64,000 nucleotides of DNA, from positions 439 to 64,438 of IMG/VR virus record IMGVR_UViG_3300013767_000112. The stretch is one strand, 5' to 3'. Below are positions 3,170 through 56,069 of this stretch, in pieces (position 1 is the stretch's first letter; every line of letters starts with the position of its first letter). Position numbers and translations under genes: made by a program. The notes under the pieces were generated by a model. It made no database searches. It saw nothing but the letters and a program-made list of their open reading frames with translations, and was not told the DNA's origin. The stretch comes from a virus.

Positions 3170-3212
3170 AGTCTTGGCCATCCACTATGGACGGCCAAGC
3201 CTTACAGGGGTG
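3170..3212 (-). promoter_or_regulatory. Putative late promoter A (lysis cassette): palindrome 3198-3212, 22 nt, AAGACT
   Basis: Minus strand reads CACCCCTGTAAGGCT-N22-AAGACT, the same spacing as at three other late-gene starts. Confidence 0.7.
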
Positions 3213-12200: not shown

Positions 12201-14084
12201 GTCCGCGGGAGCAACTGCGGGCGTGGCCGCGGCAGGTGTTGATTGCGGTTGCGCCGCAGCGGTTTCAACTTGCGGCGCTGCTTGCGGTTGCTGCTGGGGT
12301 TCGCCCGCATGTGCTGCCTCCGGTTTCGGCGCGTTTGGCGTTGCGTTGATGTCTGCCGCGGGCGCAGCCGAAGCCTGCCGGGCGTCTTCCGGCGTGGTGG
12401 TCGGCGCCTGTCGCGCGGCGGCCGGCGGCTGGGTCTGCTGCGGCTGGAGCTTTGCCAGTTCGGCCTGCACGCGGTCGCGCTCTGCGATCAGGCGCATGTC
12501 CCAGCCATTAGCGCGCGCAGTCTGTTGGATGAAGTGCAGGCGGCCCTGCAACTCGGTGGCCGGATCGTTGGCCAGCAGGCTGCCTTGTGCCCCAGTGATC
12601 TCGCCTGTTTCGGGATCTACCTGCTTGCCATTCGCGGGCTTGCCCTGTTGCTGGCCAGCGTCCGCAGCCTGCTGAAGCGCGGCCTGCTGCGCCATGTGCT
12701 GGCTCGCCCCGTTGTCGACGGCAAGCGCCGCCGCAGTGGACATCGGCCCGGCCGCGGGGTTCAGGCCCATCTGCTCGGATGCCGACGGCGCGCCCTCGAT
12801 CGGCGTCACGTCGAGAATATCGCCGCGGCGGATGCGGTCCAAACGATCGGCTCGGGCTTGCGCCGCGGCCTGGGTGGCATTGTTGAGATCGGCCGTCGTG
12901 CGCACTACGCCGTCGGCGCCCGCCTGGTAGACGGGTGCCGGCAGTTGCGGCGGCGGTTGTTCGGCAATCGTCGGCTCCGCCGGCGTCGCAGTCACGTCGG
13001 TGAATTCGCCACGGCGTGTCCGGTCGAGCGCGGTGTTTCGGTCATCCGTGGTCCGCACGACGCCGTCGGCCCCCACGTCATAGACAGGCGCCGGCAGCAA
13101 AGCAACCGGGCGCTGCTGCTCGTTCTGCGTGGGTGCCACGGCCGGCGCAGATTTCGCATCGGGGGCGCTGCCATGAATCGGCCCGGCGAGGCCGCCCATC
13201 AGGCCACCGGACAGCACGCCCATTACTGCCTGATCGCTGAGGCCTTCAGTCCATGGCTTGTCCAGCGCCAAGTTCTGCATGACCTGCTCGGACAGCGACT
13301 GCGGCAGCTCTTCAAGGAAGCCCTCGGAGATCGCGCCCTCGAGAGCCTTCCGCGGCAGGCTCTTCGAAGCCGTGCGCGCGGTCGCCGCAACTGCTGTCGG
13401 GCCGCCGGTGGCCAGTATGGTGTCGATATCGCCGATGCCCAGGCGCTGCGCCACCTTCCCGGCCACCGCGCCAAACAGCGCCGTGCCCGCACCGGATGCG
13501 GCCGCGAGACCGGCTTGCTTGCCCGTCAGCAGACCATCGTCGGTCTCCTGGCGGATCTGCTCTGCAGCGGAGCCCGCACCTGCGATGCCTTCTCCGATCG
13601 CGCCAGCCACCGCTCCGCCGATGCGCGGAACCATGGTCACCGCGCGGCCGGCGACACCACCCGCTCCCATGAGCGGCAGCGACTGCCCGACCGTGTTGGT
13701 GATGAGCGAAGGATTCGAAAGCGCGACCTTTGCCTTGTCGATCACTCCATCCGCATTCTGGAAGTCTTGCTGCTGTTGCTTGGAGGCGTCCGTCATCAGC
13801 GAGCCAAGGTATTCCCGGGCCTGCTTGGGCCGGAATCCAATGGCGCCGTCCTGGTTCTCCAGGAACTTGCCGACCTGGCCGCCGGCAGCGATATCGGCGA
13901 GACCGACCACCGCTTCGGGAACGCCAATAACGCCCTGAGCAACGGACAAGCCGAAGTCGCGAGCGTGGCCCAGCACGCCCTTTTCCTCTGGCTTGGTGGT
14001 GCCGCCGAATTCCTCCCAGGGCTTCGGTGCGGCGCTACCGGACGGCTGCTGAGCGAAGTCTTCCCACGGCTTTTGATCGGACAT
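3216..14084 (-). CDS. Giant polyvalent internal virion protein (3622 aa): ParB-like, N6-adenine MTase, LPD23/zincin, second zincin, LPD3/BECR-like and PLxRFG domains
   Basis: VLDGHH (ParB); VLEPSAG and NPPF (MTase); GADGKWRFEISD and HELQH; HEMTH; YAPLSRFG. TAATG overlap with the upstream gene. Confidence 0.85.
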   Translation of the reverse strand: MSDQKPWEDFAQQPSGSAAPKPWEEFGGTTKPEEKGVLGHARDFGLSVAQGVIGVPEAVVGLADIAAGGQVGKFLENQDGAIGFRPKQAREYLGSLMTDASKQQQQDFQNADGVIDKAKVALSNPSLITNTVGQSLPLMGAGGVAGRAVTMVPRIGGAVAGAIGEGIAGAGSAAEQIRQETDDGLLTGKQAGLAAASGAGTALFGAVAGKVAQRLGIGDIDTILATGGPTAVAATARTASKSLPRKALEGAISEGFLEELPQSLSEQVMQNLALDKPWTEGLSDQAVMGVLSGGLMGGLAGPIHGSAPDAKSAPAVAPTQNEQQRPVALLPAPVYDVGADGVVRTTDDRNTALDRTRRGEFTDVTATPAEPTIAEQPPPQLPAPVYQAGADGVVRTTADLNNATQAAAQARADRLDRIRRGDILDVTPIEGAPSASEQMGLNPAAGPMSTAAALAVDNGASQHMAQQAALQQAADAGQQQGKPANGKQVDPETGEITGAQGSLLANDPATELQGRLHFIQQTARANGWDMRLIAERDRVQAELAKLQPQQTQPPAAARQAPTTTPEDARQASAAPAADINATPNAPKPEAAHAGEPQQQPQAAPQVETAAAQPQSTPAAATPAVAPADESQPTNLKDAIAKVREGRVAQKQVKTPKSVPLTTANIEGKNLGEGWAEFHKDSGTIGIPRAEMPQIRAEHRGAMVNFMNARGVQHQEETVPAASLKPTQAEFSRDKVAKAKERTGGDRSILISRDGHVLDGHHQWMAAREKGEDVRAIRLDAPIRDLVSMAHEFPSSTVEMSDPVAAGTVPQAAASEHIDAAAHEAGPMGRVEMPEGESAAEFPMKEAASSYSGISHSGDQRAKADAEEFQAYQDAARDSGMAIAHSDAQKAAVEQAAAALRDDYLAQYRRLMGVRAGTYSGYVAGRSGLSSKQAVNRNSAYDRAIDTFTTWQKANADRVRQAALDARTDDEKAADQRAAEVARADKAQRKEDGNRSLMRKILSWTKGGDPVAITKTANLAGVNLGRDGYPTSVKLVPTDGSTLTDDKFDLAALFRDRGMSVPESKRRVRELVDAVRAEDAAQAQASPAAPQVATAAPAAGSKTPSLDAHVDFMKRVRAGDATADEFKAAFHLAEASGEAIAAELATMKKGDLLQSGGFSFYQRFRDEKKGAIVEALASRILDEYALGRSYGPSSYVMSAAGLEAHRQAKASALRDLVANTTTDDIKAHAAEIVEARKGVQARRDAQQKAVSNPQTLADFRQAVSYNVEAHGETRQQAFMRLTPDQRIRYDELEAESTKAQREQAKSQAKTRVASAGQTTAGDIIETKHTKHGHDLYVLQLAERVSREDYDTLNSSAKRLGGSYSSYRGNGAVPGFQFRTREAAEAFRKLVAGDTAEAQAVAEARRDAFDDDRSQSAVERLRTMADALDERADESLNRDRKTNTARRARMASSAEGAARADKALAGTMNNLASAIESGKAKFLDAVRQKVQVEFLGRELRNAKDAQIRAKYPSYGEQERHRGEPMDAETVDYATFPSYTAMRSDLASLARQMVDADGLKKLGARLEKVADDVTEAYTDWAKQNLLSVSRFTRGDQLADFKGREDAERAIRRSGLTGKAIVLPIKRGQNRIIMAPSEAMQQGLWTGDGDKRITLSGDFGCELVQALSRRSGRKITVPWALESAHDKRKRLEGMGIFTGSEYRSALREFAGIQEAIATPDKIKEMERAMIGRRADGLDFFPTSEAVVDTMLDAAEIESGMSVLEPSAGMGHIADAIREKAGAEPDVVELSGERRELLEAKGYHLAGNDFMAMEPRKFFTYGDVFRAPDGIVGIMHGGPAWSGRASLHAVNDDGSEGRMLGWFDRDELTGIRQRGSWSGYDRIIMNPPFSKGRDIQHVMHAYELLRPGGRLVAIMGEGAFFHSNSAAENFRAWLDDLGATSEKLPEGSFLDPALPVNTGVSARMVVIDKPTVHEASPDTTAPTEAGEPAVQFSFAGRKARGADLHALVSAQQRLMAGEAAETVRRETGWHLGADGKWRFEISDHLASIAVPGSTARSVVDMARVNALNDGRSRPLISDVLVHPRLFAAYPRLARIPIAMMPANAAADARLRHLATGPVVEVQPNMPREALASALVHELQHEIQNTEGFAKGGSADRFSSDFDKTGAVTYRRLAGEVEARNTQARMRMTPRQRLEISPEESADVRSSRVLVTFNGRDIVDGELPQNITGQPMMDAQKLVRAFDLQFPKLGKAVRMMLERGRRGMRGGVVMIDSNDPLLIAHAYATKTGTALSSAIRLFEDDGLINGFYDAKSGLTFLVGPNLDSITAPAVLLHEMTHGQQRQKLDQHAADMLSKRTSVRDRSLREFLDRAAGRMAAAGEEGNRREAAAYIVEQAVIEGRSQGFTTADNRFLAWVDQTVGQRVGDFLRSFLATVRQWMLRNGVGLGAISVDDLVGYAMAGMERAARGDVRGKGVSLSQDDARKARVLQGSPVAVLTGKEAPIGFAAVREWATSLFKEQGGQALNPDLGEVLLDGRAVRDSMAHGKASPYKFAAFAAVKDVLERGALVHQAQYHKGESFYVSAPVVIDGKDDIVTVLVRRDSNMQRMYLHSVATKEYLLKSRVSGADTSGVEQPSGSSNSGDVASVLHRLLNARLGDESDTGPQFSRAGLRDMAGRATQELNKTFSAPGGLSWWHKTIGTMYNLAQRSPAFRPVFESAQGFIDDVSHYANDAAEMAPKLLPKLDTWRDIAKAPVSAADNKAVAKPIFEGTLLWARDSAGKPARVADLAEAAARLSTEDKVAMLLEQGKIPEGMLHAWRGHSDDQFAKLIDSRFESQLLKPGVVWTDAELRGLFNLSDAQVALYHEFRAATDRSLDTMARADMLRYAGDDVKELRDRVMDATDVRAAAMILRDHLAEMADAWPDRATHLMELAHGVMDRAEKVTQLQAEGYAPLSRFGKYTVDVVEEGGERQYFGLFETRREANQMAEQMRGAFPDAAVNQGTLSEESYKLFAGITPETLELFGNALGFDSQGDSERDQAFQEYLRLTKTNRSAMRRLIHRKGIAGYSEDVGRVLASFIYSNSRQTAAGLHMGDLSEAVDAIPKEQGELKDAAVRLADYIKNPQEEAQAVRGLLFAQYLGGSVASALVNMTQPAAVTFPWLSQFGGARKAATELGRAARQMATKGFKYEADLARALHDAEEDGTVSPQEVHQLMAQARGSGSLRAGDGTRVGDARALGANSLARLSVAWGKLFGAAEQVNRRVTFIAAYRMAKDRGMAYPATFARRAVTETQFVYSKASKMQWGRGAVGGTLLTFKTYSIAYLELMSRLWSQGEEGSQERKDGRKAALLMLATLMLLGGAGGLPFAEDVDDVVDAMAQIAGYNFSAKRAKQEFLESVFGRDIASFIDKGITGLPGMPLDVSGRLGMGNLIPGTGLLTESNNHTRDVLEIVGPAGDFATRIVSGARKVAGGDIAGGLLETAPTAVRNLAKGADMAATGMYRDAKGYKVLDTNTMEAALKAVGFQPSSVATIQEANGLNQQAKAFYNLRAQEIRSMWAQGIFEKDQAKVQQARDAVADWNAKNPDQQMVVRMPDVLRRVREMAKPKDQRIADTAPKAMRQQMREDVARARADL

Positions 14085-15949
14085 TAAACCTTCTCCCAAT
14101 TCTTCTGATCGGCGGGATTACCGCCCTTGAACTTGTAGCCAGCGCGCACGCTGCCAATCTGAGGGGCGCTCGGCGTGGCCGAAGCGGTCGACTGGTCCAT
14201 GAACTGGCCGGTCTGATTGTTGAGAACCCGCGAAGGACGCGTGACCACCGACATGGCTTGCGGTTCGTATTCCTGGCCACCGGGCACAACGGTGAAACGA
14301 TTTGGGGCTTCTTTGCCGGTCAGCACGCGGATCTGCTCCGCAATGGCGCCGCGCTCTTCTGGCTTCGCTGCGTCGTACTGTTGGTACAGCTTCTCAATCC
14401 GCTGAGCACTGCGGGTCTGGAAGCCGCGCGCTTCGACATCGGCGGCGGTGCGTTGCTGATCCAGCGCGTTGCTGGCGGCAAAGCGTGCGTTCTGGCCAAT
14501 CTCCTGCACAGCGGCGCGCTGGTTGGCGCCCTGCTGTTGCATTTCCTCGCGCGCGATGCCCGAGGCGTTTTGCTCGCGGGCAAGCGCCGTCCTGTCGTCG
14601 TTCTCCTGCAGACCGGCCAGCACCCGCAGTTGGCTTGCGGTGAGCTGACCATTCGGGGAGCCGCGATAGGGAGTCGATGCGGCGGCCAGCGCCCTATTGC
14701 GCGCCTCGTCATTGCGGCCAACATCGATGTACGCGGGGACACCGTCCGGAGCAAAGCCGACGGACGGGCCGGTGGCACTCGCGGTCATTGCCGGAACGGT
14801 GCTGACCGTCCCGCCGCCTCCCTTGAATCCGAGGTTTTCGCCAGTCGCTCCGGCTACGGTGTTCGCGTCGTTGGTGAACGAGTAGGTGCCATTTGCCTCG
14901 CGCTTTCCGACGACACCAGCGATACCGGTGGGAGAGAACGCGTTTCCGGTCTGCGCCGGTGCCGTCGCCGGCGTTGGCGCGCTTGGCGAAGCGTTGGCAG
15001 GCTGGGCTGTCACCGGCGCCGTCGTGCCGGCGCGCGCCGCCGATGGCGCTACGCTGGCTGGGGCTGCCTTGGGCGCAGGTGCCTGCGCCGCGGCGGACTG
15101 CTGGTCAAAGCCGAGCAGCCCGCCGGCGAAGTTCATCAGCGGCCGACCGGCCACGTTGTACAGGTCGTCGCTGGCATCAGCGAGCGCCGCCGGCACCGCG
15201 GCCGCCGTCCCGCGAACCAGCGTGCCCAAGCCGCGCGCGTATTCGCCGTTGCCCCATTGGCTGGCCACGTCATCGCCGGTTCCGCGGAGCACCGAATCCG
15301 TGCGCCAGCCAGATCCTTCCGTCCGCATCTGAGGAACGAAGCCGACGGACGATTGCGAGGCCGCGGCCTGCGGCGATGGCGAAGGAGTGGAAGGCGCGCT
15401 GCGGGTAGCCACCTGCGGTGCGCTAGCGGCTGGAGCCGCAGTCGATGCGCGGGGATCCGTCGGGTAGGTCGTGACCGGCTGCGACAGCGCGGCGGCCACC
15501 GTCGGATTGACGGCAGGCGCAACGGGCACGCCAGTGAGACCGCGCACCTTCTTGGGATCTTCGACCACGCCGCCGTCAGCGAAAAACAGTTCAGGCTTAC
15601 CGCCCGTCTGGGGCTGCGGCGGATTGAAGCCAAGTCCCGTGGTGCCTGCCGGCATATGGGTGGCGCCCTTCATGGCGTCGAGCGCCTGGACGCCGATGGC
15701 ATGCACCTGCTCGGGCGGCAGGACGTTTTCCCCATTGCTGAGATTCACGTCGACCGGAGCGCCCTTCCCCATCGTGGCCAGCTTGTCACTACCGATCTGC
15801 TCGGTGGAGTCGGCCGGCATGACATAGCTGCCGTTGGGGACCGTGGCCTGTACATCATCAGACGTACTCGTGCCTGGCCCCTCGACCTCGCCGCCGCCGG
15901 CATAGTTCTGCGCCTTGGGCGGTTTGGCGCCCTTCTTGAATCCGTGCAT
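14084..15949 (-). CDS. Internal virion (ejection) protein, Ala/Pro-rich
   Basis: GAGGGG RBS, GGEVEGPGTSTSDDV N-terminal motif, coupled to the giant protein. Confidence 0.7.
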   Translation of the reverse strand: MHGFKKGAKPPKAQNYAGGGEVEGPGTSTSDDVQATVPNGSYVMPADSTEQIGSDKLATMGKGAPVDVNLSNGENVLPPEQVHAIGVQALDAMKGATHMPAGTTGLGFNPPQPQTGGKPELFFADGGVVEDPKKVRGLTGVPVAPAVNPTVAAALSQPVTTYPTDPRASTAAPAASAPQVATRSAPSTPSPSPQAAASQSSVGFVPQMRTEGSGWRTDSVLRGTGDDVASQWGNGEYARGLGTLVRGTAAAVPAALADASDDLYNVAGRPLMNFAGGLLGFDQQSAAAQAPAPKAAPASVAPSAARAGTTAPVTAQPANASPSAPTPATAPAQTGNAFSPTGIAGVVGKREANGTYSFTNDANTVAGATGENLGFKGGGGTVSTVPAMTASATGPSVGFAPDGVPAYIDVGRNDEARNRALAAASTPYRGSPNGQLTASQLRVLAGLQENDDRTALAREQNASGIAREEMQQQGANQRAAVQEIGQNARFAASNALDQQRTAADVEARGFQTRSAQRIEKLYQQYDAAKPEERGAIAEQIRVLTGKEAPNRFTVVPGGQEYEPQAMSVVTRPSRVLNNQTGQFMDQSTASATPSAPQIGSVRAGYKFKGGNPADQKNWEKV

Positions 15950-15987: not shown

Positions 15988-16030
15988 ATACTCCGAGGCT
16001 CAATTCCGAAGGGCCAGCCCTACAGGGGTG
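15988..16030 (-). promoter_or_regulatory. Putative late promoter B: palindrome 16016-16030, 22 nt, GAGTAT
   Basis: CACCCCTGTAGGGCT-N22-GAGTAT, about 32 nt before ATG 15949. Confidence 0.65.
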
Positions 16031-16045
16031 GCACCGTATAATCCG
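16013..16045 (+). repeat. 33-bp direct repeat copy 1 with TATAAT
   Basis: GCCAGCCCTACAGGGGTGGCACCGTATAATCCG; 30/33 identical to 17283-17315. Confidence 0.9.
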
Positions 16046-16082
16046 GCTTCTCTATTGGGATCCCTGCGCTTCAGGAGAGTTG

Positions 16083-17207
16083 ATGTCCACCAAGCTATCT
16101 CTACTCACATCGCGAGACGCTGTAAGTGCTGCAATGGCTGAATGTGACCAACTTGGTCGCGATAGCTTTCTCAAACACTACGGCTATAAATTTTCGCGCC
16201 TTTACCCCCTACACCATAACGGGAAGACTTACGACTCCAAAGCCATTGTCGGCGTTGCCTACGGTAAGCAGCATGGCACTGCCTTGAAGGCAAGGGACTT
16301 CTCCGGCGGAGCCGCAACCGTAGTTCCCACCCTCCACCGGCTGGGCTTTCCTGTCAAAGAGACTCCCCATCCGATCGCCAGTCTTGTTAAGGGGACGACG
16401 TACTTCAGGAAAAATTTGCTCGAGCGATACGGTGGCCAGCTTCAGAGGGGCATTTGGACACCGCGAGAATTCCCTGTCATCTTCATTTTCACCGGTGATA
16501 GCGGAAAGGCCTACGGATATAGTGATGGGTGGATTGACAACGGTATCTTTCGGTACACGGGTGAGGGCCAGTCCGACGATATGACGTTTACGGCTGGGAA
16601 TGAGGCCATCCGCAACCACAGGAAGAATGGCAAAGATCTACTGTTGTTTGAGGATCTTGGGAAAGGAAAGGGGGTCCGCTACACCGGTTTATTTGAATGC
16701 GCCTCATGGGATCAGATCAGTGGCATCGACAAGGCGAAGAAGTCGCGCAAGCTGATCGTTTTCAATTTGATCCCGGTGGAGACTGCAGCCACAGAATCTG
16801 AAGCTACCGTTGCGGTTCCTCGCTCTATCAAGGCTCTGTCACTCGAAGAGCTTAGGCGAGCGGCATACGATGCATCGCAAGATCACGGACCGATCTCGAA
16901 AGCGAGCGACGCCAAGCGGTCATGGTATGAACGAAGCGCCGCCGTACGTGACTATGTACTCGCGCGATCCGAAGGTGTTTGCGAGGCTTGCGATCAACCG
17001 GCCCCTTTCCTAAAGAAGGATGGCAATGCCTATTTGGAACCCCACCATACCACCCGACTAGCGGATGAAGGACCAGATCATCCAGCGTGGGTGGGAGCAA
17101 TCTGCCCTAACTGTCACAGGCGCATTCACTCTGGAATAGATGGGGCGGATTGGAACAAGCGCCTTCGAGAACGGCTGAAGGCAAAGGAAAATCATTCACA
17201 CTCTTGA
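16083..17207 (+). CDS. ScoMcrA-like type IV restriction nuclease: head domain, SRA domain, HNH
   Basis: YDSKAIVG...FSGG head; YGGQLQRGI, Y.DGW, YTGEGQ SRA-like; CEAC...LEPHH...AICPNCHRRIH HNH. AGGAG RBS and lower GC. Confidence 0.85.
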   Translation: MSTKLSLLTSRDAVSAAMAECDQLGRDSFLKHYGYKFSRLYPLHHNGKTYDSKAIVGVAYGKQHGTALKARDFSGGAATVVPTLHRLGFPVKETPHPIASLVKGTTYFRKNLLERYGGQLQRGIWTPREFPVIFIFTGDSGKAYGYSDGWIDNGIFRYTGEGQSDDMTFTAGNEAIRNHRKNGKDLLLFEDLGKGKGVRYTGLFECASWDQISGIDKAKKSRKLIVFNLIPVETAATESEATVAVPRSIKALSLEELRRAAYDASQDHGPISKASDAKRSWYERSAAVRDYVLARSEGVCEACDQPAPFLKKDGNAYLEPHHTTRLADEGPDHPAWVGAICPNCHRRIHSGIDGADWNKRLRERLKAKENHSHS

Positions 17208-17282
17208 CGCGACCCAGCAGCCTCGCCGAGTGCATGCTAATCTATTTTTCGACCGCGCGATTGCTTCCGTCCCTTTTTTTGT

Positions 17283-17315
17283 GCCAGCCCTACAGGGGTC
17301 GCATCATATAATCCG
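17283..17315 (+). repeat. 33-bp direct repeat copy 2 with TATAAT
   Basis: GCCAGCCCTACAGGGGTCGCATCATATAATCCG, 1270 bp after copy 1. Confidence 0.9.
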
Positions 17316-17478
17316 CCTATTGGCAAATGGTTCGACGGTCGATTATGGCCGTGTCCCAAACATCGCTATTTATGAGGTTCCTGCTCGGATGCGACAGACC
17401 ACAGCCTTCAGGCCATTCCGTTTTGGATAACTGCAGAACGCTCAAGTCATAGGCACCTTGAACAAATGGGATCATCAA

Positions 17479-18834
17479 ATGCAAGAAAAAAACCAGCTTC
17501 TAAAGACTGTTGCCCAAAATTTTGTAATTGCCGACCCTCCACCTGCTCCACTGAATGGATTCTCTGAAGTGGCCGCATGGTTTTCTAAGCACGAAATCAT
17601 CTATCCAAGGACATTTACGATAGATGGCAACGCACTAGGGTTCAAAAAACCCGGAGCAGACGCCGTAACGTCACTGGCAAATGATCTTCTCAAAGATAAC
17701 CGTCAATACCTAGAAGGCATCGAGCACGGAAAACTTAAAGAAGCTATCGCGCAAGAACTAATCAATGCTATTCGCAGTAATTCGCCGTACGAAAATTTCG
17801 AATATCTAGAATTACATATTGCAAATTGGTTCTCAGACCAGTCGGCCGGAAAAACTCACTTCACACCCTGCTTCATATCACCAAATTATTCACAGCCCTT
17901 TAGTGTTGGGCCGGTGAGATTCCTTTCGCTCGATCAATTCCAGGCTGCTCATGCCATTTCCTCGAAAAACGACTTCGAGAAGTTCCCATATGACAAACTC
18001 TTCGAGTTTGCAGAACGACAGAATGCGCGCTGGATCGCGGAAGTAAGTATTGATGGATACGACACCAAACGATCAACCGAGCACGCGGATATAGCAATCG
18101 ACATCGCACTCGTTGCTTTGCAACTATTCATTCCGTCCTCTGAATGCAAGAACGTCGCCAGAGCCACAGCCAGAACCATCCCCTCGAATATCAGTCACTT
18201 CCATAGAGTCGATGACCATCTACGGGCGAGTTTCAGTCGCATGGACCCTTGTTTGGCCTATTCTGCGGGGTATTTCGATTATTTGCTCAAGCAGAATAAG
18301 TCAGTTCTTGATTCGGTTGGAAATCGAGTCAAAGCCTTTGTTGAAGGAAAATCGACTCTACTCCAACTCGACCAGGCGTGGTGTGACGCAGCGTACTGGT
18401 TTCATGAAGGCATATCTGAAGAACTTGACTCCGTAGCGATCGCAAAAATAGAAACCTCGATTGAGGTATTGCTATTCGCCGAAAGCACTAAAGGGTGCAA
18501 GGACCGATTAATAAAGACCTTTCAATCGTTTTATGGTTTATCCATGAATGACCCACTGCGCGAAAATGATCCCCGCACCGTTTTTGCATTCATCGAATCG
18601 ATCGTAACAGCACGGTCTCGTGTTCTTCATGGAACATGGTCAACACTGAACTATCGAAAGCAGATGCAGATTGAGCGCCAGCATCGCGACGAGATCGAGA
18701 TGCTGGCGAGAGACCTCCTAGCCCGTGTTACCTTGGAACTCGATAACTACAAGCAATCAGAGCAGCCCGAAGACAATTTCACCAAATTTCTTGACTGGGT
18801 CTCGCGTCAGCGGGCCGCAGACTCTATCTCCTAG
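17479..18834 (+). CDS. HEPN-domain protein (ApeA/RiboL-like architecture), candidate anti-phage RNase
   Basis: C-terminal helical region with IETSIEVLL and RSRVLHG (RxxxxH); low GC; antisense to the late operon. Confidence 0.7.
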   Translation: MQEKNQLLKTVAQNFVIADPPPAPLNGFSEVAAWFSKHEIIYPRTFTIDGNALGFKKPGADAVTSLANDLLKDNRQYLEGIEHGKLKEAIAQELINAIRSNSPYENFEYLELHIANWFSDQSAGKTHFTPCFISPNYSQPFSVGPVRFLSLDQFQAAHAISSKNDFEKFPYDKLFEFAERQNARWIAEVSIDGYDTKRSTEHADIAIDIALVALQLFIPSSECKNVARATARTIPSNISHFHRVDDHLRASFSRMDPCLAYSAGYFDYLLKQNKSVLDSVGNRVKAFVEGKSTLLQLDQAWCDAAYWFHEGISEELDSVAIAKIETSIEVLLFAESTKGCKDRLIKTFQSFYGLSMNDPLRENDPRTVFAFIESIVTARSRVLHGTWSTLNYRKQMQIERQHRDEIEMLARDLLARVTLELDNYKQSEQPEDNFTKFLDWVSRQRAADSIS

Positions 18835-20723
18835 TACTGATAGTTGTAGCTGGTCGACGTGCTCTCGCTCCTACTGTCCGAAGAGCTGGCACTCCCCGAA
18901 CCGCTGATGTTGGCGGACACGTGCGCGGCAGACAATGCCCCGGCGGCGAGCTGGGCTGTGTATTGACCCAGTGCCTTGGCCGACTCCAGTGCAATCTGCG
19001 CCTGCTGGATCGCGTTCTGCATCTTCGCTGCGTACTCGCTGATCTGCATTTCCGAGTAAGCGATGTTGGTCCGGCTGTTCATGTCGGCGAAGCGGGACTG
19101 CATTTCGGCATCTGCCACCGCCGCGCTGGCCGCCGCGCGCCAGGCCTCGACCTTGGCCTGGAATACGGAAGTGCTGCACTGCACGTCGCTCAGATTCGCC
19201 TGCAGCGTTGCCTTGTATGCGTCCACGTCTGCGAGGAACTTTGACACCTTCGTGCGCGCGGCCTCCATCTTGATCTGCGCGCCCTTGACCTTGATGTCGG
19301 CTTTACTCGCCAGGCCCTGAATGGTCGACGCGTAGGCACGGGCCTGCGAATCAAGCACACCAGCCTTGGCCGCCTCCCCCTTCACCTGCGCCTCGTAGGC
19401 GTCGAACTTCACCTTCTCGGCGCCGATCTGCTCGGCGTAGGCCTGCACGTCGGCCCGGTAGGCGTCGAACTGGTTCTTGATCGTCTCGGCGCGGACGGAT
19501 GCTCCCTGCATCATGGCCTTGTAGACCTCGACATTGGACTGCACCGCCTGCAGCTTCGCCTTGAACACGTCGACCCGCTGCTGGTTGATCTGGCCGAGCG
19601 CCACCTGCCCCTCCACGGCAGTCTTGTAGGCCGTGAGCTTAGAGATTGCCGCGTCGAGCTTCGTCCGGTAGACCTGTGCCAGCGTCTCAAAGGCCGCGTT
19701 CTGCGCATTAAACAGGCTGACCTGCGCATTGAATACGTTTATCTGGCTTTCCGCGTGGAAGCGGGCGACCTCAAACAGGCGCTTCGCCGTGTTCTCGTGC
19801 AGATTCGTGGTCAGTTGCTCGAGCGCCAGACCCTGCTGGACAGCAAAGCGTAGGTTCTCAATCTCCCACGTCGCGGCCTGAACCAGAATATCGCGGTTCA
19901 GCTCGGCAGCCTTCAGCCGCCCTTGCTCACGGACGACGTTCACCTGCTTGGCGAGCATGCCAGGCGGCATGCTGAAGTCGCGCGCGGCCCACGTGTCGAC
20001 CGCCTCCTGCACAGCGCGCTCCGTCTCGGCACTGTCGCGCTCGCGGGAGCGGGCAAAAAGGGCGTCCTCCACGGCGGCCGGTAGACCCGTACCACCGGCC
20101 ATCAGCGCTTTCACCCGGATCTGCAGGTCGCCAAGCACTTCGGAGGCATACGCCGGCTCCGCCCAGTTAATGAACACGTTCGGCACCGTGATGCCGCGCG
20201 CATCCGGCGGCGTGGCGTCGAAGGTCGGCAACTCCGGGAAGACGAAGTCGGGCAGGCGGATCTGCTCCAGAGTCTCCATTTCCGGCATGACGATCAGCGG
20301 TGCGTCGGGAATCTGCACCGCCGTGTCGATGTCCGGCCGCGCCGGCGCCGGGATGGTGGCCATGCCCGGTGCGTCGGGGATGTTGATGGGGATGAGCGCC
20401 GGCGCCTCGGGCAGCGGATCCATGTCACCGACATCAAGGCCGCTCAGCAGGTCGTCAATGTTCAGCCCGTCCGGCGCTTCTGGCTTCACCAGCGGCGCGG
20501 CGTCGAACGTCGGCTGGTTGTCCAGCGACACAGGCGGCGGCAAGGCGACCGGCGCGGCCGGCCGGGTAGGCGCGGGTACGTCGACCACCTTGACGGAGCC
20601 GATGTTGGTAAGCGCCTGACTCAGTTGCGCGCTGTACGTGCGCGCCATGCCGTCGAGGGTGCTGATTTTCTGGGTGACGGTATCTACCGCCACGCCGAGG
20701 ATGCTGTCTGGTGCGATGCCCAT
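18831..20723 (-). CDS. Helical virion/ejection protein
   Basis: About 630 aa, long Ala/Gln-rich amphipathic helices, in the structural operon. Confidence 0.65.
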   Translation of the reverse strand: MGIAPDSILGVAVDTVTQKISTLDGMARTYSAQLSQALTNIGSVKVVDVPAPTRPAAPVALPPPVSLDNQPTFDAAPLVKPEAPDGLNIDDLLSGLDVGDMDPLPEAPALIPINIPDAPGMATIPAPARPDIDTAVQIPDAPLIVMPEMETLEQIRLPDFVFPELPTFDATPPDARGITVPNVFINWAEPAYASEVLGDLQIRVKALMAGGTGLPAAVEDALFARSRERDSAETERAVQEAVDTWAARDFSMPPGMLAKQVNVVREQGRLKAAELNRDILVQAATWEIENLRFAVQQGLALEQLTTNLHENTAKRLFEVARFHAESQINVFNAQVSLFNAQNAAFETLAQVYRTKLDAAISKLTAYKTAVEGQVALGQINQQRVDVFKAKLQAVQSNVEVYKAMMQGASVRAETIKNQFDAYRADVQAYAEQIGAEKVKFDAYEAQVKGEAAKAGVLDSQARAYASTIQGLASKADIKVKGAQIKMEAARTKVSKFLADVDAYKATLQANLSDVQCSTSVFQAKVEAWRAAASAAVADAEMQSRFADMNSRTNIAYSEMQISEYAAKMQNAIQQAQIALESAKALGQYTAQLAAGALSAAHVSANISGSGSASSSDSRSESTSTSYNYQY

Positions 20724-21883
20724 CACACTCTCCTTTTCGTCGGCGCCGACTCGACGCGCAGATCATTGATATAGGCGTGCCGCGCGGTCAAGCGCAGCGT
20801 GAAGCCGAAATGCCGACCGCGCAGGCCGCGGCCGAAGACAATACGATCGTTCGTCAGCTCGGCGGCTGGCTCAGACTCAAGCGCGTAGCTGTAGGTCTCG
20901 GTAGCGCCGCTCTGCGTGGTGCTCACGTCCATGGTGGCCGCGCCATCGGCGTCCAGCTCATACTCGAGGTAGGCCGCGACTGGATGCACCAGCACGCCCT
21001 TCCCCACGTCCACCTTTCCGGTCACCATCCGCGCCTCGATCGCCTCGCTGCCGGCCGAGAGCGCGTAGACGCCGTCGTCGGTCGTACCGTAGAGCACTCC
21101 GTCGATGACGGCGAGCCCGTTGAAGGTGAACGGCGCGTAGCGGCTCATGGCCCAGCGATCGGCATTCGCGGTCCAAGCCTGGCCGCTGCCATGTTCGGCC
21201 GGCATCGAGTCCTCGACCACGGCGCCATCCTGCACCAGGTCGCGGGCGTGTAGGCGGTCGAGCACCACAGCAAAGGCGCGGGCCCGCTCGGTAGGCACCT
21301 GCTCAACGGCGCGGTGTGCATCCAGCAGTTCATCGGTCGCGGTGGCACCGTCCAGTACCCGTTGACGGGTATGCACGCGCCCGCCGGCCCAGTCGCTCGC
21401 GGCCCCGGTTTCGCTGATCAGCACCCTGGAAAACTGGCCGGTGAAGTCGCGCGCACGGATGACTTCGCTTACCAGTGAATGAGCCCGGCGCTGCCCGAAT
21501 ACGGCATCAGCGATCGCTACACGCTCGGTGGTGATCGAACGTGTCTTGTCGAACACTCTATCGGCGGCCACGGCCGTGTCGGCGAGCAGCGCGCGCTGGC
21601 GGACGATCGCGCGATCGGAAGCCTTGACGTTGTCCGCCAGCAGCACAGCGGCGCGCAGGTGCCCCATCGCGGCGTCGCTCACGGTCGCTCGTTCCGCGAG
21701 CAGGGAGCGCGCATTGTCTTGCACCTGATCGGCCGCCACAGCGATCTCAGTGTGCGTCACCAGCAAGGCGAACAGCAGCTTGCTAGTGGCCTTCGCCGAG
21801 TCTTCTACCACTGCCGCAATCTTCACCCAGGTGGTGTCGCGGACAAAGGCAGTCTCCTGGGTGTCGTCCCGGTATCTACTCAT
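20723..21883 (-). CDS. Phage structural protein (repetitive N-terminal half)
   Basis: Translationally coupled ORF in the tail region. Confidence 0.65.
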   Translation of the reverse strand: MSRYRDDTQETAFVRDTTWVKIAAVVEDSAKATSKLLFALLVTHTEIAVAADQVQDNARSLLAERATVSDAAMGHLRAAVLLADNVKASDRAIVRQRALLADTAVAADRVFDKTRSITTERVAIADAVFGQRRAHSLVSEVIRARDFTGQFSRVLISETGAASDWAGGRVHTRQRVLDGATATDELLDAHRAVEQVPTERARAFAVVLDRLHARDLVQDGAVVEDSMPAEHGSGQAWTANADRWAMSRYAPFTFNGLAVIDGVLYGTTDDGVYALSAGSEAIEARMVTGKVDVGKGVLVHPVAAYLEYELDADGAATMDVSTTQSGATETYSYALESEPAAELTNDRIVFGRGLRGRHFGFTLRLTARHAYINDLRVESAPTKRRV

Positions 21884-26326: not shown

Positions 26327-29300
26327 CAGAAGGCGCCCTTTCGATACTGGTCCGCGTTGCCATCCGGACGGATGAAGCGAACGCCAGGTTTAACATCAGA
26401 AGCCGACGAGCTGAAACCGAGAATCCCTACAGGGGTAATCGAGCGTGACGCGCGTGGCGGGTCGACACGCTTGACGCGCAACCGCTTGTCGAAGGCCTCG
26501 AGCTGGTACTCGCACAGGAACGCATCGAAGCCGGATACTTTCGCCTCGCGCACCCGGAACGATACCCACGGCTGCGCCACCGCTTGGCTCGCTAAGCCAG
26601 TGGGGATAGTCGGCATCAGCGGGCCGACGCGCAGGCCCTGCCACATGTACGGGGTATCACCGCCCTTGCGTGTCCCCAGTGCAGCGGAATCGAAGCCGGA
26701 CGGCTTCACAGTGCGGTTGAAGAAATCGACTGCCTGCTTGTCTATCGCAGGAGGCACGATCCCCAACGGCTTTGCGGTCTGCGCGCCGACAGGCGGAGGC
26801 GGAGCGACCTTCGCCTGGCCGAAGACTGCGGAGTCCACACCATTGAACTGCTCCGCGTATTGATCGCCGGGCACCATGTGCCAGCCGCTTCGGAAGCTGG
26901 TGAATCCGGTCGGCCTGATGTAGTGCCTCCGAAGTTGGACCGTCGAAGCTCCGAAACTGGTGAAATAGGTTCCCGTGGCTTGCAGCCTTCGATTCTGGTT
27001 CGTCACAGTGACGTTGCCGAGGATTGCTCCTGGCGTGCGCCCGTAGCCATCAATTGGGTGCAACGGTAGTGTGGTCGGATGGTTCCTCTTGGCCTGTTCC
27101 GGTGCCTCTGTCATTGCCCAGATGGTGTGAGGCGTAACCCGCGGCTTGCCTTGATAGTCGGCATCCTGATAGTCGTATGGCGGCACGGTCAGCGTGCGGA
27201 TCTTGAGCGAGACCATGGGGTCGCCGATCAGCAGCTCCCAGTAACCAGGTTCCACGCGAACGGAATTTGCGGTAACGCTGTGTGAGCCAATGCGGGTGGC
27301 CACGTCGTCCTGCTTCACGTAGATGACCTGCTGATTCATGATCGGCAAGCCCATCTGGCTCCGTGGCGGATCATCGCCAGGAGGGATCCCGAAGCCGTCC
27401 TTGCCCGGCTCGCCATCCAGCGTAATGTACTGGGTGGAATACGGCGGCGCGCCGGTGCGCACGACGGTCAGCTTGTCGCCGAAAGCCCCCGCGCGCAGTC
27501 CCATGACGGTCACGCTGCGGTCGCGGAATGCGATGTCCGCTTTGCCAAATTCCTGGGTCAAAGCGCCATCCGGCTGCACCGGACGCCATTGCAGCCGCAC
27601 GAACGTGTCACCGAACTCGTCGGACGCACTGCCCCGTGTATGCAGCTCGGGAGTCACGTTCCACACCGTGGGCGAGCCGTACAGATTCTGGAGAGTCCAC
27701 CGCGGCGTGATGAGCGTCCAATGGATAGACAGAGACGCCCAGCCCAAGCCGGACAGATCATCGCCGCGCGGCTCCACATAGCGCGTGTAGAGCTTCACCT
27801 CCGGCAACTGGATCACCGGCGGCCCGATCGTATAGCGCGGCTCGAACGACAGCGTGCGGACGCGATCAGCGATCATCGGATAACCGAACACCGCCGAATC
27901 GAAGCCACCGATGCGCTCGAAGGTGCGGCGGGTGTTCTCGATCTTCGGCAGGCCGGCCGCCGGGCTGCTGATGCCGGCTGGAGCGGCCACAAACGCATCG
28001 TTGTAGACCGTGGCCCAGGACGGAATATATGGCGGCTCCAATCCATCCAAGCGCAGCCGTCGCACGCGATACGCCACCATGCCGGCCTTGTAGAAGGCCT
28101 CCGGATCTGGCGAGCGGATACCCTCCGGGAATAGCGGCGCGGCCTTGTTGTCAATCTGCGGGATCCCGGGCCGTGACAGGTCGTTGCCTGTGGCACGCAG
28201 ATTGTGGTTTCGGTTCTCGATCAGCGTCCACTGTGGCCAAGCTGGCGTATTCAGCCCACTGTCCGGGTCGTAGTACATGCTGATGTACTGCACCAGGTTG
28301 TAGGCGTTGGCCGTCCCCCAGCGGTCGGCAGGCTGCTTCCCCACGGTGAGGAAGCCAGGCGGCACCACGAGCTGGGTGTAGTTGCGGATGCTCGCTAGTC
28401 CATAGGTGCCAGAGAAGCCCAGCGGGTAGACCTGCTGTACCTCCGGGATGATGCGCGAGCCGAACTGCGCAGCGTCGTAACCCACCGGCCGCAGGAAGCG
28501 CAGGCCGCCGACCATATGATTGGCCGCGAAGAATTCGAAAATGCTGGCCGGCGCGATAGTCCGGTCGGAGTTGTCCACCGTCGGCGTGCCGTAGGCCGAC
28601 ATGGCCGTGCCCGTGGCGATCAGTTCACGCCACGAGTGGTCGATCCTTCCCGAGCCGTACTTGTCGCTAGCGAACCCTTGCGCCGGCAAGTAGCGATAGC
28701 GGAACCAGACCGTGGCGCTGCCGAGCGCCTGGCTGTCTGCGCCCTTCGCAGCCACGTTACGCACGCGCGGCCACACGGTCGGCAAGCCAATGGCACCGGT
28801 GAAGCCGGACGGCGAGATTTCCGGCGTCTTTGTCAGCGTCGGGGCGCCAATGCCCGGAGATGCTATGCCCGACAGGTACAGCGAGCGCACCGCGAAGCCG
28901 ACACCAGTTTCCGTGCTCGACGGCTTGCCCAGCGCGTCGAAGCCCTGCGGCGCCACCGATGGCGTCTTGTTGGCGATGGCGCCGCCGCCAGCGGCGAGGG
29001 AATCCCAGCCAGCCAGGAGCAGGTAACGGCGGGTGTTCTCCACCAGCGCCCAGGGCGACAGCTCGAGCGCGTCGAGGCCCGCGAGTTTGACGACAACGGA
29101 CTTGTTGGTGACGCGAGAGTCGCCGAACGGCCCCACGTCGACCGGCGAAGACGGGAACACCCACTGCGTCGGGTCGAAGACAATCGGATAACCCAAGTCA
29201 ACTGCAGCTATTCCCCGCGGCAACAGGTACTTGGTCTTGTACTCGATGCTCGCCTGCCCGAACAACGCGGCATCCCAGCCAGTCGGAGTCGGGTTGCGCT

Positions 29301-37943: not shown

Positions 37944-37986
37944 AGTGTGCGAATGGCACGCACAAACAGAAAGCCCTACAGGGGTG
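37944..37986 (-). promoter_or_regulatory. Putative late promoter E (scaffold/capsid): palindrome 37972-37986, 22 nt, CACACT
   Basis: CACCCCTGTAGGGCT-N22-CACACT in the portal-scaffold gap. Confidence 0.7.
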
Positions 37987-42918: not shown

Positions 42919-42961
42919 AGTCTTGGGATACAGGGCGGGAGCGTCCAGCCCTATAGGGGTA
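42919..42961 (-). promoter_or_regulatory. Putative late promoter F (terminase): palindrome 42947-42961, 22 nt, AAGACT
   Basis: TACCCCTATAGGGCT-N22-AAGACT, 8 nt before ATG 42910. Confidence 0.7.
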
Positions 42962-43203
42962 TGGGAAAAGCCGGGCTCGGTTGTAGTATTCTGAGCCGTC
43001 TGGGAGTCGTGCCTAATTGGTAGGCTTCCCGCGGGCCGGATGCCAGCACTGCACTGTGGTCACCGGCAGCTACCGGCCATAACGAGACACTCGCATCGCT
43101 TCGGCGAATGGCTGCTCGATGATTCATGACCAGACATCAGGCCACCCCCGAAAGTAGCGAGCGTTGCGGGCAGATCGAGCATAGCCGGCCATCCGAAATC
43201 TCA

Positions 43204-55194: not shown

Positions 55195-55836
55195 ATGGAA
55201 ATCTCAAAAGAAGCCCTCGATGCCATCCGCACCACTGCGGCCGCACTGGACACGAATCTCCACCCCGGCCCGATCGGCCACATGGGAGTGTTCTTTGCCG
55301 CCCTAGCCAAGGCACAAGGCGCCTTCGAGCCGGTCATCACGAACAAGACCGCATACGTGAAGAGTGACAAAGGTAACTACCAGTTTGGCTACGCCAGCCT
55401 GGCGGAAATGCGCTCGAAGACGACACCGCACCTGTCCGCAAACTCCATCTGCCTGACTCAACTGGTTACCGAGACCGAGAACGTGACCGGCATTCGAACG
55501 ATCCTCGGCCACGAATCGGGATCGATGATGGAAGGCACGCTGCGCATCCACCGCGCCGACTACAAGAACGTGAAGGACTTCGGCGCAGCGATCACCTACC
55601 TGCGCCGCTACGTTGTTGGGGCAATGCTTGGCATCGCGGCCGATGAGGACATCGAGAACGACGAAAGCGAGGACGATCGTCCCGGCCCGATCAATGCGGA
55701 GGTGCACCCTGACATGCGCGACGCCACCAGCATCGGCGCACTGAGCAAGGTCATGAACGGCCTGAGCAAAGAGGACCGCGTCAAGTACAACGACTACTAC
55801 AACCAGCGGACCCAAGAACTGCGGGAGGCATCGTGA
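55195..55836 (+). CDS. erf: ERF-family single-strand annealing protein
   Basis: ALAKAQ, YQFGYASL, TIL.HESG, GAAITYLRRY...LGIA. Confidence 0.9.
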   Translation: MEISKEALDAIRTTAAALDTNLHPGPIGHMGVFFAALAKAQGAFEPVITNKTAYVKSDKGNYQFGYASLAEMRSKTTPHLSANSICLTQLVTETENVTGIRTILGHESGSMMEGTLRIHRADYKNVKDFGAAITYLRRYVVGAMLGIAADEDIENDESEDDRPGPINAEVHPDMRDATSIGALSKVMNGLSKEDRVKYNDYYNQRTQELREAS

Positions 55837-56069
55837 TCACGCCAGCCCAATGTGGTGAAAAGGCCGAAGCCATCCTTGGCACGTATGTGACCGATGTCGG
55901 CGCCTATGGCGATGCCGACGCGGTGGCGAAAGTCCTCGAGCTACTGATCAGCAAGGCAGCGCTTGGCATCGCCATGACGAGCGGCGAGGACCGCGCGCAC
56001 AAGGTTCTGATGCGCACGTCGATGAACGTCCAACGCGTGATCGAGGGGAGCCGAGCATGCGCATCGTGA
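55833..56069 (+). CDS. Hypothetical protein
   Basis: Coupled ORF between erf and the exonuclease. Confidence 0.6.
   Translation: MITPAQCGEKAEAILGTYVTDVGAYGDADAVAKVLELLISKAALGIAMTSGEDRAHKVLMRTSMNVQRVIEGSRACAS

What the first reader, a model, noticed from the sequence alone, without database searches (positions are those of the whole stretch)
16013..17315. Defence cassettes stacked behind 33-bp direct repeats built on the late-promoter palindrome
Seen: two 33-bp repeats (30/33 identical, 1270 bp apart), each the late palindrome plus TATAATCCG. Each sits directly in front of one low-GC, antisense, defence-like gene (SRA-HNH, then HEPN), giving repeat-gene-repeat-gene. Inference: a cassette hotspot where each new moron arrives with, or duplicates, this element. 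Recombination between the repeats would delete the HNH cassette cleanly and leave a hybrid promoter on the HEPN gene. This resembles an integron-like array, but no dedicated recombinase is adjacent; ERF/YqaJ could use such short homology.
Basis: partly seen in the sequence, partly recalled or inferred. Interest (0 to 1): 0.85.

Follow-up and report, generated by a model that had tools for sequence, protein, structure and literature searches.

The report
Duplicated promoter fronting two phage defence genes
In an F116-like temperate phage, two unrelated anti-phage genes sit at a gene-insertion hotspot between two virion genes, each behind a copy of the same short regulatory element; the second copy looks like a by-product of ordinary recombination, not a dedicated gene-capture system.

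Summary
Two direct repeats (16013-16048 and 17283-17318; 32/36 identical, 30/33 as reported; 1270 bp apart) each precede one low-GC gene antisense to the virion genes. The first gene is a ScoMcrA-type type IV restriction nuclease. The second is an ApeA-like HEPN protein.

The window is an F116-like (Hollowayvirus-related) phage from a subsurface metagenome. The repeat core (late-sense CCCCTGTAGGG) is a directional motif found 5-6 times per genome in this lineage. In 21 of 26 instances a -10-like hexamer follows it at a fixed 24-25 nt, so it is probably an activator-dependent late promoter. Copy 2 lacks that hexamer. It duplicates only the motif plus the outward TATAAT.

The junction between the two flanking virion genes is a real cargo hotspot, with about 13 junction types from 62 bp to 4.6 kb. 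One repeat per cassette is not the rule: only the window and one relative (L009) have a second copy. In L009 the second copy includes a diverged fragment of the neighbouring virion gene, which points to unequal recombination between related phages.

No integron features were found, and the source-sample contigs show no 1270-bp deletion. The nearest precedents are phage morons, prophage defence hotspots and T4 PeSL cassettes. Other notes from this scan on the same window cover the motif itself.

The parts
14084..15949 (-). Virion gene 'A' (621 aa). It is the conserved left flank of the hotspot and the first gene downstream of the native late-promoter motif.
   Evidence: ORF list. Homologues flank the variable site in LKA5, Epa33, 8P and in viral, metagenome and genome contigs.
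15988..15993 (-). -10-like hexamer GAGTAT of the late promoter for gene A, 24 nt downstream (late-sense) of the core motif.
   Evidence: An nAnnnT hexamer at this fixed offset is present in 21 of 26 motif instances across five genomes.
16013..16048 (+). Repeat copy 1, the native hotspot boundary: 20-nt near-palindrome 16013-16032 (core 16018-16028), then 4 nt, then TATAAT at 16037-16042 facing the cargo.
   Evidence: The same motif lies roughly 68-80 nt upstream of gene A in most Pseudomonas-type relatives that carry it.
16083..17207 (+). Cargo 1: ScoMcrA-family type IV (modification-dependent) restriction nuclease, 374 aa, with head, SRA and HNH domains.
   Evidence: PADLOC mREase_IV 3e-25 and 2e-16. 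Pfam HNH. Precomputed PF26345 and PF26348 plus 'McrA' names. PDB 5ZMM, 6GHC and 5ZMN.
17283..17318 (+). Repeat copy 2: palindrome plus TATAAT (17307-17312). It lacks the late-sense -10-like hexamer, so it is a partial duplicate of copy 1's region.
   Evidence: One search shows CAATCG at the position where the other intergenic copies have nAnnnT.
17479..18834 (+). Cargo 2: ApeA-like HEPN protein, 451 aa from the ATG. Its stop codon overlaps the stop codon of gene B, which converges on it.
   Evidence: Atlas feature and structure hits. Homologues at 57-64% identity in Paraburkholderia, Burkholderia and Ralstonia. R379-x4-H384 is invariant in 46 sequences. The model has pLDDT 92 and matches AFDB 'Apea-like HEPN' clusters.
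18831..20726 (-). Virion gene 'B' (631 aa). It is the conserved right flank; cargo begins at its stop codon.
   Evidence: Homology between relatives resumes within the last ~50 nt of B.
3200..3210 (+). Core motif copy just after the stop of the 3627-aa virion gene, upstream of the lysis genes (lysozyme 2334-2987, minus strand).
26425..26435 (+). Core motif copy inside the 3' end of a 1327-aa gene, about 100 nt upstream of the next gene's start at 26326.
   Evidence: Conserved at the orthologous place in relatives.
37974..37984 (+). Core motif copy between the portal gene and the next virion gene.
42949..42959 (+). Core motif copy (CCCTATAGGGG) 39 nt upstream of the small-terminase gene, which is the start of the late operon.
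55195..55836 (+). ERF-family single-strand annealing protein gene.
   Evidence: PF04404 2e-14 at G000 55804-56148, which is window 55366-55710.
56057..56689 (+). YqaJ-type exonuclease gene.
   Evidence: PF09588 5e-10 at G000 56531-56890, which is window 56093-56452.

Best explanation
The locus is a two-gene defence 'moron' array at a conserved insertion hotspot of F116-like phages. The hotspot lies between the stop codon of virion gene B and the late promoter of virion gene A. Repeat copy 1 is the native hotspot boundary. It consists of the lineage's late-promoter motif (probably a late-activator binding site) with an outward-facing TATAAT 4 nt beyond it that serves the first cargo gene. Repeat copy 2 is a partial duplicate of that boundary: the motif, the outward -10 and the first bases of the McrA leader, but not the late -10. 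It now stands in front of the HEPN gene. The duplicate most likely arose through unequal or illegitimate recombination between related phages carrying different cargo at the same site, or through a local duplication of the junction. It was probably kept because it gives the second gene the same promoter and operator as the first. Inferred, not shown: both cargo genes are transcribed from these promoters in the lysogen; binding of the late activator to the motif, which covers about -36 to -17 of each cargo promoter, shuts them off during the phage's own lytic cycle. The repeats could support occasional loss of the nuclease cassette by homologous recombination, but they are not sites of a dedicated cassette-capture system.
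For: Hotspot: the B-A gap ranges from 62-132 bp (L069, 8P, L028, L063) to 4.6 kb, in about 13 junction types. In the relatives compared, cargo lies between B's stop and the motif, and homology between them breaks within about 15-25 nt after the core. In 8P the motif sits 5 nt from B's stop. The motif is a lineage feature: 5-6 copies per genome, all on one strand, in the window, L009's genome, LKA5, 8P and a Moraxellaceae prophage. In 21 of 26 instances an nAnnnT hexamer follows at 24-25 nt, with 16 hits at offset 24 against 0-6 (mostly 0-2) at other offsets. The sites precede the small-terminase gene, the gene after portal, gene A and the lysis genes. Copy 2 is partial: it is the only intergenic copy without the late hexamer, and it shares TATAATCCG..CTATTGG with copy 1. 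CTATTG is part of the McrA-type leader, which is conserved upstream of McrA homologues in unrelated contexts. Copy 2 therefore derives from a junction between the motif and an McrA cassette. Recombination footprint: L009 has 96-97% aa identity in A and B. Its second motif copy lies within a duplicated segment of at least 153 bp that contains residues 3-76 of a diverged A gene. The two cargo genes are independent: homologues of each occur alone in other contexts and without the motif. An outward -10-like hexamer at the same offset occurs in the closest relatives (TATAAT, TATCAT, TAGAGT). A more abundant co-occurring relative in the source sample diverges exactly at the cargo/B boundary.
Against: There are no transcription data, so promoter activity in either direction is inferred. 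The outward promoters have a perfect -10 but no -35 and no extended -10, and the sigma-70 scan does not call them. No terminator was detected after either cargo gene. In the window itself no fragment of gene A accompanies copy 2, so the recombination route is argued by analogy with L009. The 7-nt CTATTGG match could be chance. The sample of close relatives with large cargo is small (five arrays).
Confidence: 0.6

Rival explanations
1. PeSL-like or integron-like shuffling module. The composite of palindrome plus -10 would be a portable recombination and expression cassette. New cargo would be gained, stacked and lost by recombination between copies, possibly through the phage's Erf/YqaJ system, producing deletions and mini-circles.
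For: Two independent arrays (the window and L009) carry a second copy in front of a distal cargo gene. The anatomy, a stem-loop-capable palindrome overlapping a promoter, resembles T4-type PeSLs, where the stem-loop commonly lies between -35 and -10 (PMC2839356). ERF and YqaJ genes are present. The cargo boundary coincides with the palindrome edge in the relatives compared.
Against: Three multi-gene arrays have only one copy. L009's second copy carries a gene-A fragment, so its breakpoint was not at the element. The composite element was found only twice in this genome. In IMG/VR the only related instance was L009's contig; the other two pattern matches appear unrelated. Cargo homologues elsewhere lack it. 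No joint was seen in the source contigs. The longest uninterrupted identity between the copies is 17 nt. No adjacent recombinase and no attC-like ends were found.
Confidence: 0.2
2. Neutral leftover. Copy 2 would be a functionless scar of a one-off duplication or of a decayed late promoter, and the HEPN gene would be expressed from something else in its 163-nt leader.
For: Copy 2 lacks the late -10. It lies 163 nt from the HEPN start, against 37 nt for copy 1. The copies differ at 4 of 36 positions and by a 5-nt indel.
Against: The TATAAT hexamer and its 4-nt spacing from the palindrome are preserved exactly in both copies and in L009's second copy, while surrounding bases differ. This suggests selection on the outward promoter. 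No alternative sigma-70-like site is called in the leader.
Confidence: 0.15

Closest known systems
Phage morons (extra genes between late-operon genes of temperate phages; established concept from lambdoid phage genomics, cited from my own knowledge)
   Same: The genes are inserted between two conserved virion genes. Their GC is lower than the backbone's. They are independent of virion function and are presumably expressed from the prophage. They are absent or different in relatives.
   Different: Here the cargo is antisense to the late operon, and no terminator was detected. The cargo promoter overlaps the binding motif of the adjacent late promoter and has been duplicated for the second gene.
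Prophage defence hotspots of P2-like phages and P4-like satellites (Rousset et al. 2022, PMC9122126; abstract seen)
   Same: A fixed position between conserved phage genes holds interchangeable anti-phage systems. Here these include type IV nucleases, an ApeA-like HEPN protein and DUF3427-NOV_C (PADLOC PDC-S36).
   Different: The phage lineage is different (F116-like podophages of Pseudomonas-type hosts and relatives). The hotspot lies inside the virion gene block, is bounded by a late promoter, and also carries non-defence cargo (antirepressor, SRAP, IF-1-like).
PeSL cassettes of T4-type phages (Arbiol et al. 2010, PMC2839356, read; Comeau et al. 2014, PMC4122927, abstract only)
   Same: A short repeated composite of a stem-loop-capable sequence and a promoter stands immediately upstream of accessory genes in a variable region. 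Recombination between copies would delete or circularise the intervening gene.
   Different: PeSLs are full sigma-70 early promoters with -35 and -10, number about 50 per genome and have demonstrated promoter, terminator and mini-circle activity. Here there are two composite copies and no -35. The palindrome belongs to a late promoter on the other strand, and no recombination product was observed.
Integron (intI, attI, Pc, attC-flanked cassettes; established knowledge)
   Same: A resident boundary promoter faces an array of promoter-poor cargo genes at a fixed site.
   Different: There is no integrase at the site and no attC-like recombination sites. The cassettes are not uniformly bounded, and the second promoter copy is itself duplicated, whereas integron cassettes are read from a single Pc.

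Membership tests
Integron | Tyrosine recombinase IntI adjacent to the array | tested here: not met
   The neighbours on both sides are conserved virion genes with no recombinase domain.
Integron | Each cassette ends in an attC site | tested here: not met
   Only a 36-bp repeat precedes each gene. The HEPN gene ends directly against gene B's stop with no repeat. Multi-gene arrays in relatives have a single motif. No formal attC model was run.
PeSL (T4-type promoter-stem-loop cassette) | Complete sigma-70 promoter with -35 and -10 | tested here: not met
   There is a perfect TATAAT, but no -35 or TG extension can be read in the sequence, and the consensus scan does not call either site.
PeSL (T4-type promoter-stem-loop cassette) | Stable stem-loop within or beside the promoter | tested here: inconclusive
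   A 9-bp inverted repeat with one mismatch is present. Folding energies are not unusual compared with shuffles (z from +0.2 to -1.1 on either strand).
PeSL (T4-type promoter-stem-loop cassette) | Many copies bracketing accessory genes, and recombination products (indels between relatives, mini-circles) | tested here: not met
   There are two composite copies in the genome. No joint appears in the source contigs, but contigs cannot show rare forms, so circles remain untested.
Phage moron | Insertion between adjacent conserved late genes, absent from relatives | tested here: met
   In 8P the B-A gap is 80 bp and contains only the motif; in the window it is 2.9 kb.
Phage moron | Deviant base composition | tested here: met
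   GC is 0.48-0.54 against 0.65-0.69 in the flanks.
Phage moron | Own promoter and terminator, with expression from the prophage | tested here: inconclusive
   Only the -10 boxes are present and no terminator-like site follows either gene. No RNA runs hold the sequence.
ScoMcrA-type type IV restriction endonuclease (cargo 1) | N-terminal head domain, SRA domain and C-terminal HNH nuclease | tested here: met
   Precomputed PF26345 and PF26348. Pfam HNH at residues 301-351. PDB 5ZMM head 11-97, 5ZMN SRA 101-191 and 6GHC HNH 279-352. PADLOC mREase_IV. There is no room for ScoMcrA's sulfur-binding domain between residues 97 and 101.
HEPN, ApeA-like (cargo 2) | Conserved R-x4-6-H motif in a C-terminal helical domain | tested here: met
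   R379 and H384 are invariant in 46 homologues. The model places them in the C-terminal helical domain, at the end of helix 368-383 and just after it.
HEPN, ApeA-like (cargo 2) | Sequence or fold membership in the ApeA HEPN family | tested here: inconclusive
   No Pfam hit even at E of 10 or less, and no PDB fold match. AFDB clusters named 'Apea-like HEPN' match at E 1e-6 to 1e-3 with TM 0.3-0.56. The Atlas gives a structure match of TM 0.81 to such a cluster.

The most novel reading that the evidence does not exclude
The late-activator motif plus outward -10 would be a reusable switch module in F116-like phages. Any gene placed behind it is on in the lysogen and is silenced by the phage's own late activator. 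The module would be copied with each added defence gene, and Erf-mediated recombination between copies would add or drop cassettes. This would be a temperate-phage counterpart of T4 PeSL shuffling with built-in lysogeny-specific regulation.
Probability: 0.15. Interest if true: 0.6.

Novelty: new member of a known kind. Interest (0 to 1): 0.35.

Why it matters
The locus defines a previously undescribed accessory-gene and defence hotspot in F116-like phages, a group that includes generalised transducing phages of Pseudomonas aeruginosa. It also gives a concrete picture of how stacked cargo can arise there, namely by recombination between relatives that duplicates the hotspot boundary. The overlap of the cargo promoters with the late-promoter motif offers a simple, testable way for a prophage to switch off its own defence genes when it turns lytic. 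None of this changes current concepts. It extends known moron and defence-hotspot biology to another lineage.

Tried and rejected
- **Cargo homologues in viral contigs.** The HEPN query matched no pattern, and the McrA query gave no confirmed relative. First attempts failed on frame errors.
- **Composite pattern in IMG/VR.** The scan for core + N8 + TATAAT gave 3 hits. Only one, the contig of L009, is a related phage.
- **HEPN family assignment.** Pfam, NCBIfam and PADLOC gave nothing for the HEPN protein, and the PDB fold search gave nothing significant.
- **T7-like RNA polymerase.** I looked for PF00940 because the late-sense motif resembles a single-subunit polymerase promoter core. There was no hit, but the control genomes also gave none, so the result is uninformative.
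- **Palindrome as a terminator.** Rejected. No T-run follows it on either strand, folding is not unusually stable, and the scan does not call it.
- **Test for the 1270-bp deletion or a circle.** Only assembled contigs of the source run were available. No joint was seen, which cannot exclude rare variants.
- **Wider sampling of relatives.** In one genome-per-species genus sample, 2 of 401 genomes held gene B. The genome contigs and metagenome scans added 8 and 22 loci, many of them redundant or truncated at the site.
- **Upstream leaders of HEPN homologues.** There is no conservation with the window's 163-nt leader.
- **Integron reading.** Rejected; see the membership test.

Full report
**1. 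Observation**

The region was read directly. The repeat finder reports one direct-repeat family at 16013-16048 and 17283-17318: 36 nt, 89% identical, 1270 bp apart. If a 5-nt indel is allowed, the similarity continues through CTATTGG.

The first 20 nt form a near-palindrome, a 9-bp inverted repeat with one mismatch around a central AC. With up to 3 mismatches it occurs four times in the window against 0.00 expected in shuffles. Its 11-nt core with up to 1 mismatch occurs six times, all on the + strand, against 0.66 expected. The core copies are at 3200, 16018, 17288, 26425, 37974 and 42949. Only the two copies in question are followed, after 4 nt, by TATAATCCG.

Each copy precedes one + strand gene, and the surrounding virion genes are all on the minus strand. 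GC falls to 0.48-0.54 over 16-19 kb, from 0.65-0.69 in the flanks.

**2. The genome**

The window is 64 kb of a 66.6-kb IMG/VR virus record assembled from a subsurface metagenome. The flanks of the locus are about 77% identical at nucleotide level to Pseudomonas phages LKA5, Epa33, phiC725A and 8P, which are F116-like Hollowayvirus phages or close relatives.

The minus strand carries:
- small terminase (42005-42910);
- a P22-type portal (38040-40373);
- further virion genes, including a 3627-aa giant protein (3216-14099);
- a lysozyme (2334-2987).

**3. The cargo genes**

Gene 1 (16083-17207, 374 aa) is a ScoMcrA-family type IV restriction nuclease.
- PADLOC gives mREase_IV at 3e-25 and 2e-16.
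- Pfam finds HNH.
- The precomputed domains are ScoMcrA_N and SRA_ScoMcrA, and homologues are named 5-methylcytosine-specific restriction protein A.
- PDB 5ZMM matches the head domain, 5ZMN the SRA domain and 6GHC the HNH domain.
- Head and SRA abut at residues 97 and 101, so ScoMcrA's sulfur-binding domain is absent.

Gene 2 (17479-18834, 451 aa) has no Pfam, NCBIfam or PADLOC hit.
- It has homologues at 57-64% identity in Paraburkholderia, Burkholderia and Ralstonia. One of these is named Apea-like HEPN.
- An R-x4-H motif (R379, H384) is invariant across 46 homologues.
- A confident model (pLDDT 92) matches several AlphaFold clusters named Apea-like HEPN at E 1e-6 to 1e-3.
- The ESM Atlas gives a structure match of TM 0.81 to such a cluster.
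- No solved structure matches.

Homologues of each gene occur separately in unrelated contexts: a Mu-like prophage for McrA, and a prophage immunity region or chromosomal sites for HEPN. None of these carries the motif. The two genes are therefore independent cassettes, and 'defence-like' is justified for both.

**4. The palindrome**

In LKA5, 8P, the genome of the closest relative (L009's contig) and a Moraxellaceae prophage, the core occurs 5-6 times per genome and always on one strand, that of the virion genes when read as CCCCTGTAGGG.

I fetched 20 instances from those genomes and aligned them with the window's six. In 21 of 26 instances an nAnnnT hexamer (AAGACT, CACACT, GAGTAT and similar) follows at 24-25 nt. 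There are 16 hits at offset 24 against 0-6 (mostly 0-2) at other offsets.

The sites lie upstream of the small-terminase gene, the gene after portal, gene A and the lysis genes. They often sit a few bases after the preceding stop codon.

This pattern fits an activator-dependent late promoter in which the motif replaces the -35. Another note of this scan on the same window (e1-5353856) proposed this reading, and I tested it here on relatives. The activator itself is unidentified. RNA folding of the motif is unremarkable and no T-run follows it, so it is not a terminator.

**5. The site in relatives**

I call the two flanking virion genes A (14084-15949) and B (18831-20726). Using them as anchors, I collected the junction from annotated phages, IMG/VR contigs, genomes and metagenome contigs. 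The B-A gap takes about 13 forms.

| Relative(s) | Gap |
|---|---|
| L069, 8P, L028, L063 | 62-132 bp |
| L059-type, L064 | 203, 279 bp |
| Epa33-type | ~356 bp |
| LKA5-type | 534 bp |
| L020/L021, L027, L025 | 766-948 bp |
| window | 2.9 kb |
| L029, L026, L009 | 3.1-3.2 kb |
| L011/L060 | 4.2 kb |
| L012/L058 | 4.6 kb |

In most Pseudomonas-type relatives and in the Moraxellaceae relative, one motif copy sits upstream of gene A. In the relatives compared, homology breaks within about 15-25 nt beyond the core on one side and at B's stop codon on the other. In 8P the motif lies 5 nt from B's stop.

The cargo is diverse:
- L012 carries an HNH type IV nuclease and a DUF3427-NOV_C protein (PADLOC PDC-S36).
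- L009 carries the same DUF3427-NOV_C gene, split in two, plus a 317-aa protein.
- L026 carries an ANT/Rha antirepressor.
- L029 carries DUF4124 and SRAP proteins.
- L011/L060 carries an IF-1-like protein.
- LKA5 and Epa33 carry small proteins.

The hotspot is therefore real, and it is enriched for defence genes without being limited to them.

In the source sample, a co-occurring relative at about four to five times higher depth diverges from the window exactly at 18841, the cargo/B boundary.

**6. One repeat per cassette?**

This is not a general rule. Among the multi-gene arrays that use this motif, only the window and L009 have a second copy. L011/L060, L012/L058 and L026 have one.

L009 shows how a second copy can arise. 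Its second motif lies in a duplicated segment of at least 153 bp, 78% identical to the first copy. That segment contains the leader and residues 3-76 of a diverged copy of gene A (66% aa identity). It is the left boundary of another phage's hotspot, joined in by unequal or illegitimate recombination together with that phage's cargo.

In the window the second copy is shorter, but it is also derived from a boundary:
- It has the motif and the outward TATAAT.
- It has CCG..CTATTGG. CTATTG begins the McrA-type leader (CTATTGAGAA, then 8 nt, then CTTCAGGAG), which is conserved upstream of McrA homologues elsewhere.
- It lacks the late-sense hexamer, and it is the only intergenic copy to do so.

Copy 2 therefore descends from a junction between the motif and an McrA cassette and is not a complete late promoter.

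**7. Likely mechanism**

What the sequence shows:
- The arrangement is B stop, antisense cargo, motif, late -10, gene A.
- The outward TATAAT keeps an identical 4-nt spacing from the palindrome in both window copies and in L009's second copy. TATCAT and TAGAGT stand at the same offset in L009's first copy and in L011.

What I infer:
- The site tolerates insertions because gene A has its own late promoter, so cargo placed upstream of it has no polar effect.
- The cargo genes are read from the outward -10 in the lysogen.
- The motif spans about -36 to -17 of that promoter, so late-activator binding would silence the cargo during lytic growth. This would also avoid head-on transcription. HEPN and B converge with overlapping stop codons, and no terminator was detected between them.
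- The duplicated element was kept because it gives the second gene the same control.

The promoters lack a -35 and are not called by the consensus scan, so their activity is unproven.

**8. The recombination idea**

ERF and YqaJ genes are present, and recombination between the repeats would delete the nuclease gene. However, the longest uninterrupted identity is 17 nt, and no deletion joint appears in the contigs of the source run. That is weak evidence, because contigs drop rare forms. Nothing indicates a dedicated system.

**9. Comparison with known systems and verdict**

The locus is a moron-type defence hotspot, comparable in concept to the P2/P4 hotspots (PMC9122126). Its duplicated promoter element recalls T4-type PeSLs (PMC2839356), but it fails their defining features: a full sigma-70 promoter, high copy number and demonstrated recombination products. 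It is not integron-like beyond having a boundary promoter.

I rate it a new member of a known kind and of moderate-to-low interest. The more interesting aspect is the shared late-activator site and cargo operator, which is the subject of separate notes on this window (e1-5353856, e1-5353859).

Noticed in passing
window 43081-45240: A second variable, lower-GC block (0.56-0.57) lies just upstream, in late-sense, of the terS late-promoter motif. It is non-homologous to the 96%-related phage L009 (2160 bp here against 1842 bp there), and homology resumes 121 nt before the motif. The ORFs there have no Pfam hit. The adjacent ORF 45301-45840 has a weak AbiEi_4 match.
   Followed up: partly
window 3200, 16018, 37974, 42949 and orthologous sites in LKA5, 8P, L009's genome and a Moraxellaceae prophage: Late-sense CCCCTGTAGGG is followed by an nAnnnT hexamer at 24-25 nt in 21 of 26 instances. 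This is a conserved candidate late promoter whose activator is unknown. The core also superficially resembles single-subunit RNA-polymerase promoter cores (CTATAGGG).
   Followed up: partly
L009:5323-6722 (minus strand) versus L012:3201-4592: The DUF3427-NOV_C (PADLOC PDC-S36-like) gene is one 463-aa ORF in L012 but is split into overlapping 260- and 206-aa ORFs in L009. This is probably a frameshifted copy.
   Followed up: no
window 18841-18951 (3' end of gene B): Contigs of the source run branch here. A relative at roughly 91-120x depth, against 21x for the window, shares 18841-18872 and then differs on the cargo side, so several hotspot variants coexist in one subsurface sample.
   Followed up: partly
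window 16055-16085; L032:4080-4128; L033:1020-1066: McrA-type genes in unrelated contexts share a conserved leader: CTATTG(A/G)GA, about 8 nt, CTTCAGGAG, 5-6 nt, ATG. This suggests a conserved translational or regulatory element that travels with the gene.
   Followed up: no
L001 (LKA5) 3900-4250, + strand of the locus: The published LKA5 record annotates no gene in its 534-bp B-A gap, but an antisense low-GC ORF of about 116 aa with a signal-peptide-like N-terminus lies there, directly after the motif.
   Followed up: no
window 17327-17452: A 41-codon ORF lies in the 163-nt leader between repeat copy 2 and the HEPN start. It is not conserved upstream of HEPN homologues elsewhere.
   Followed up: partly
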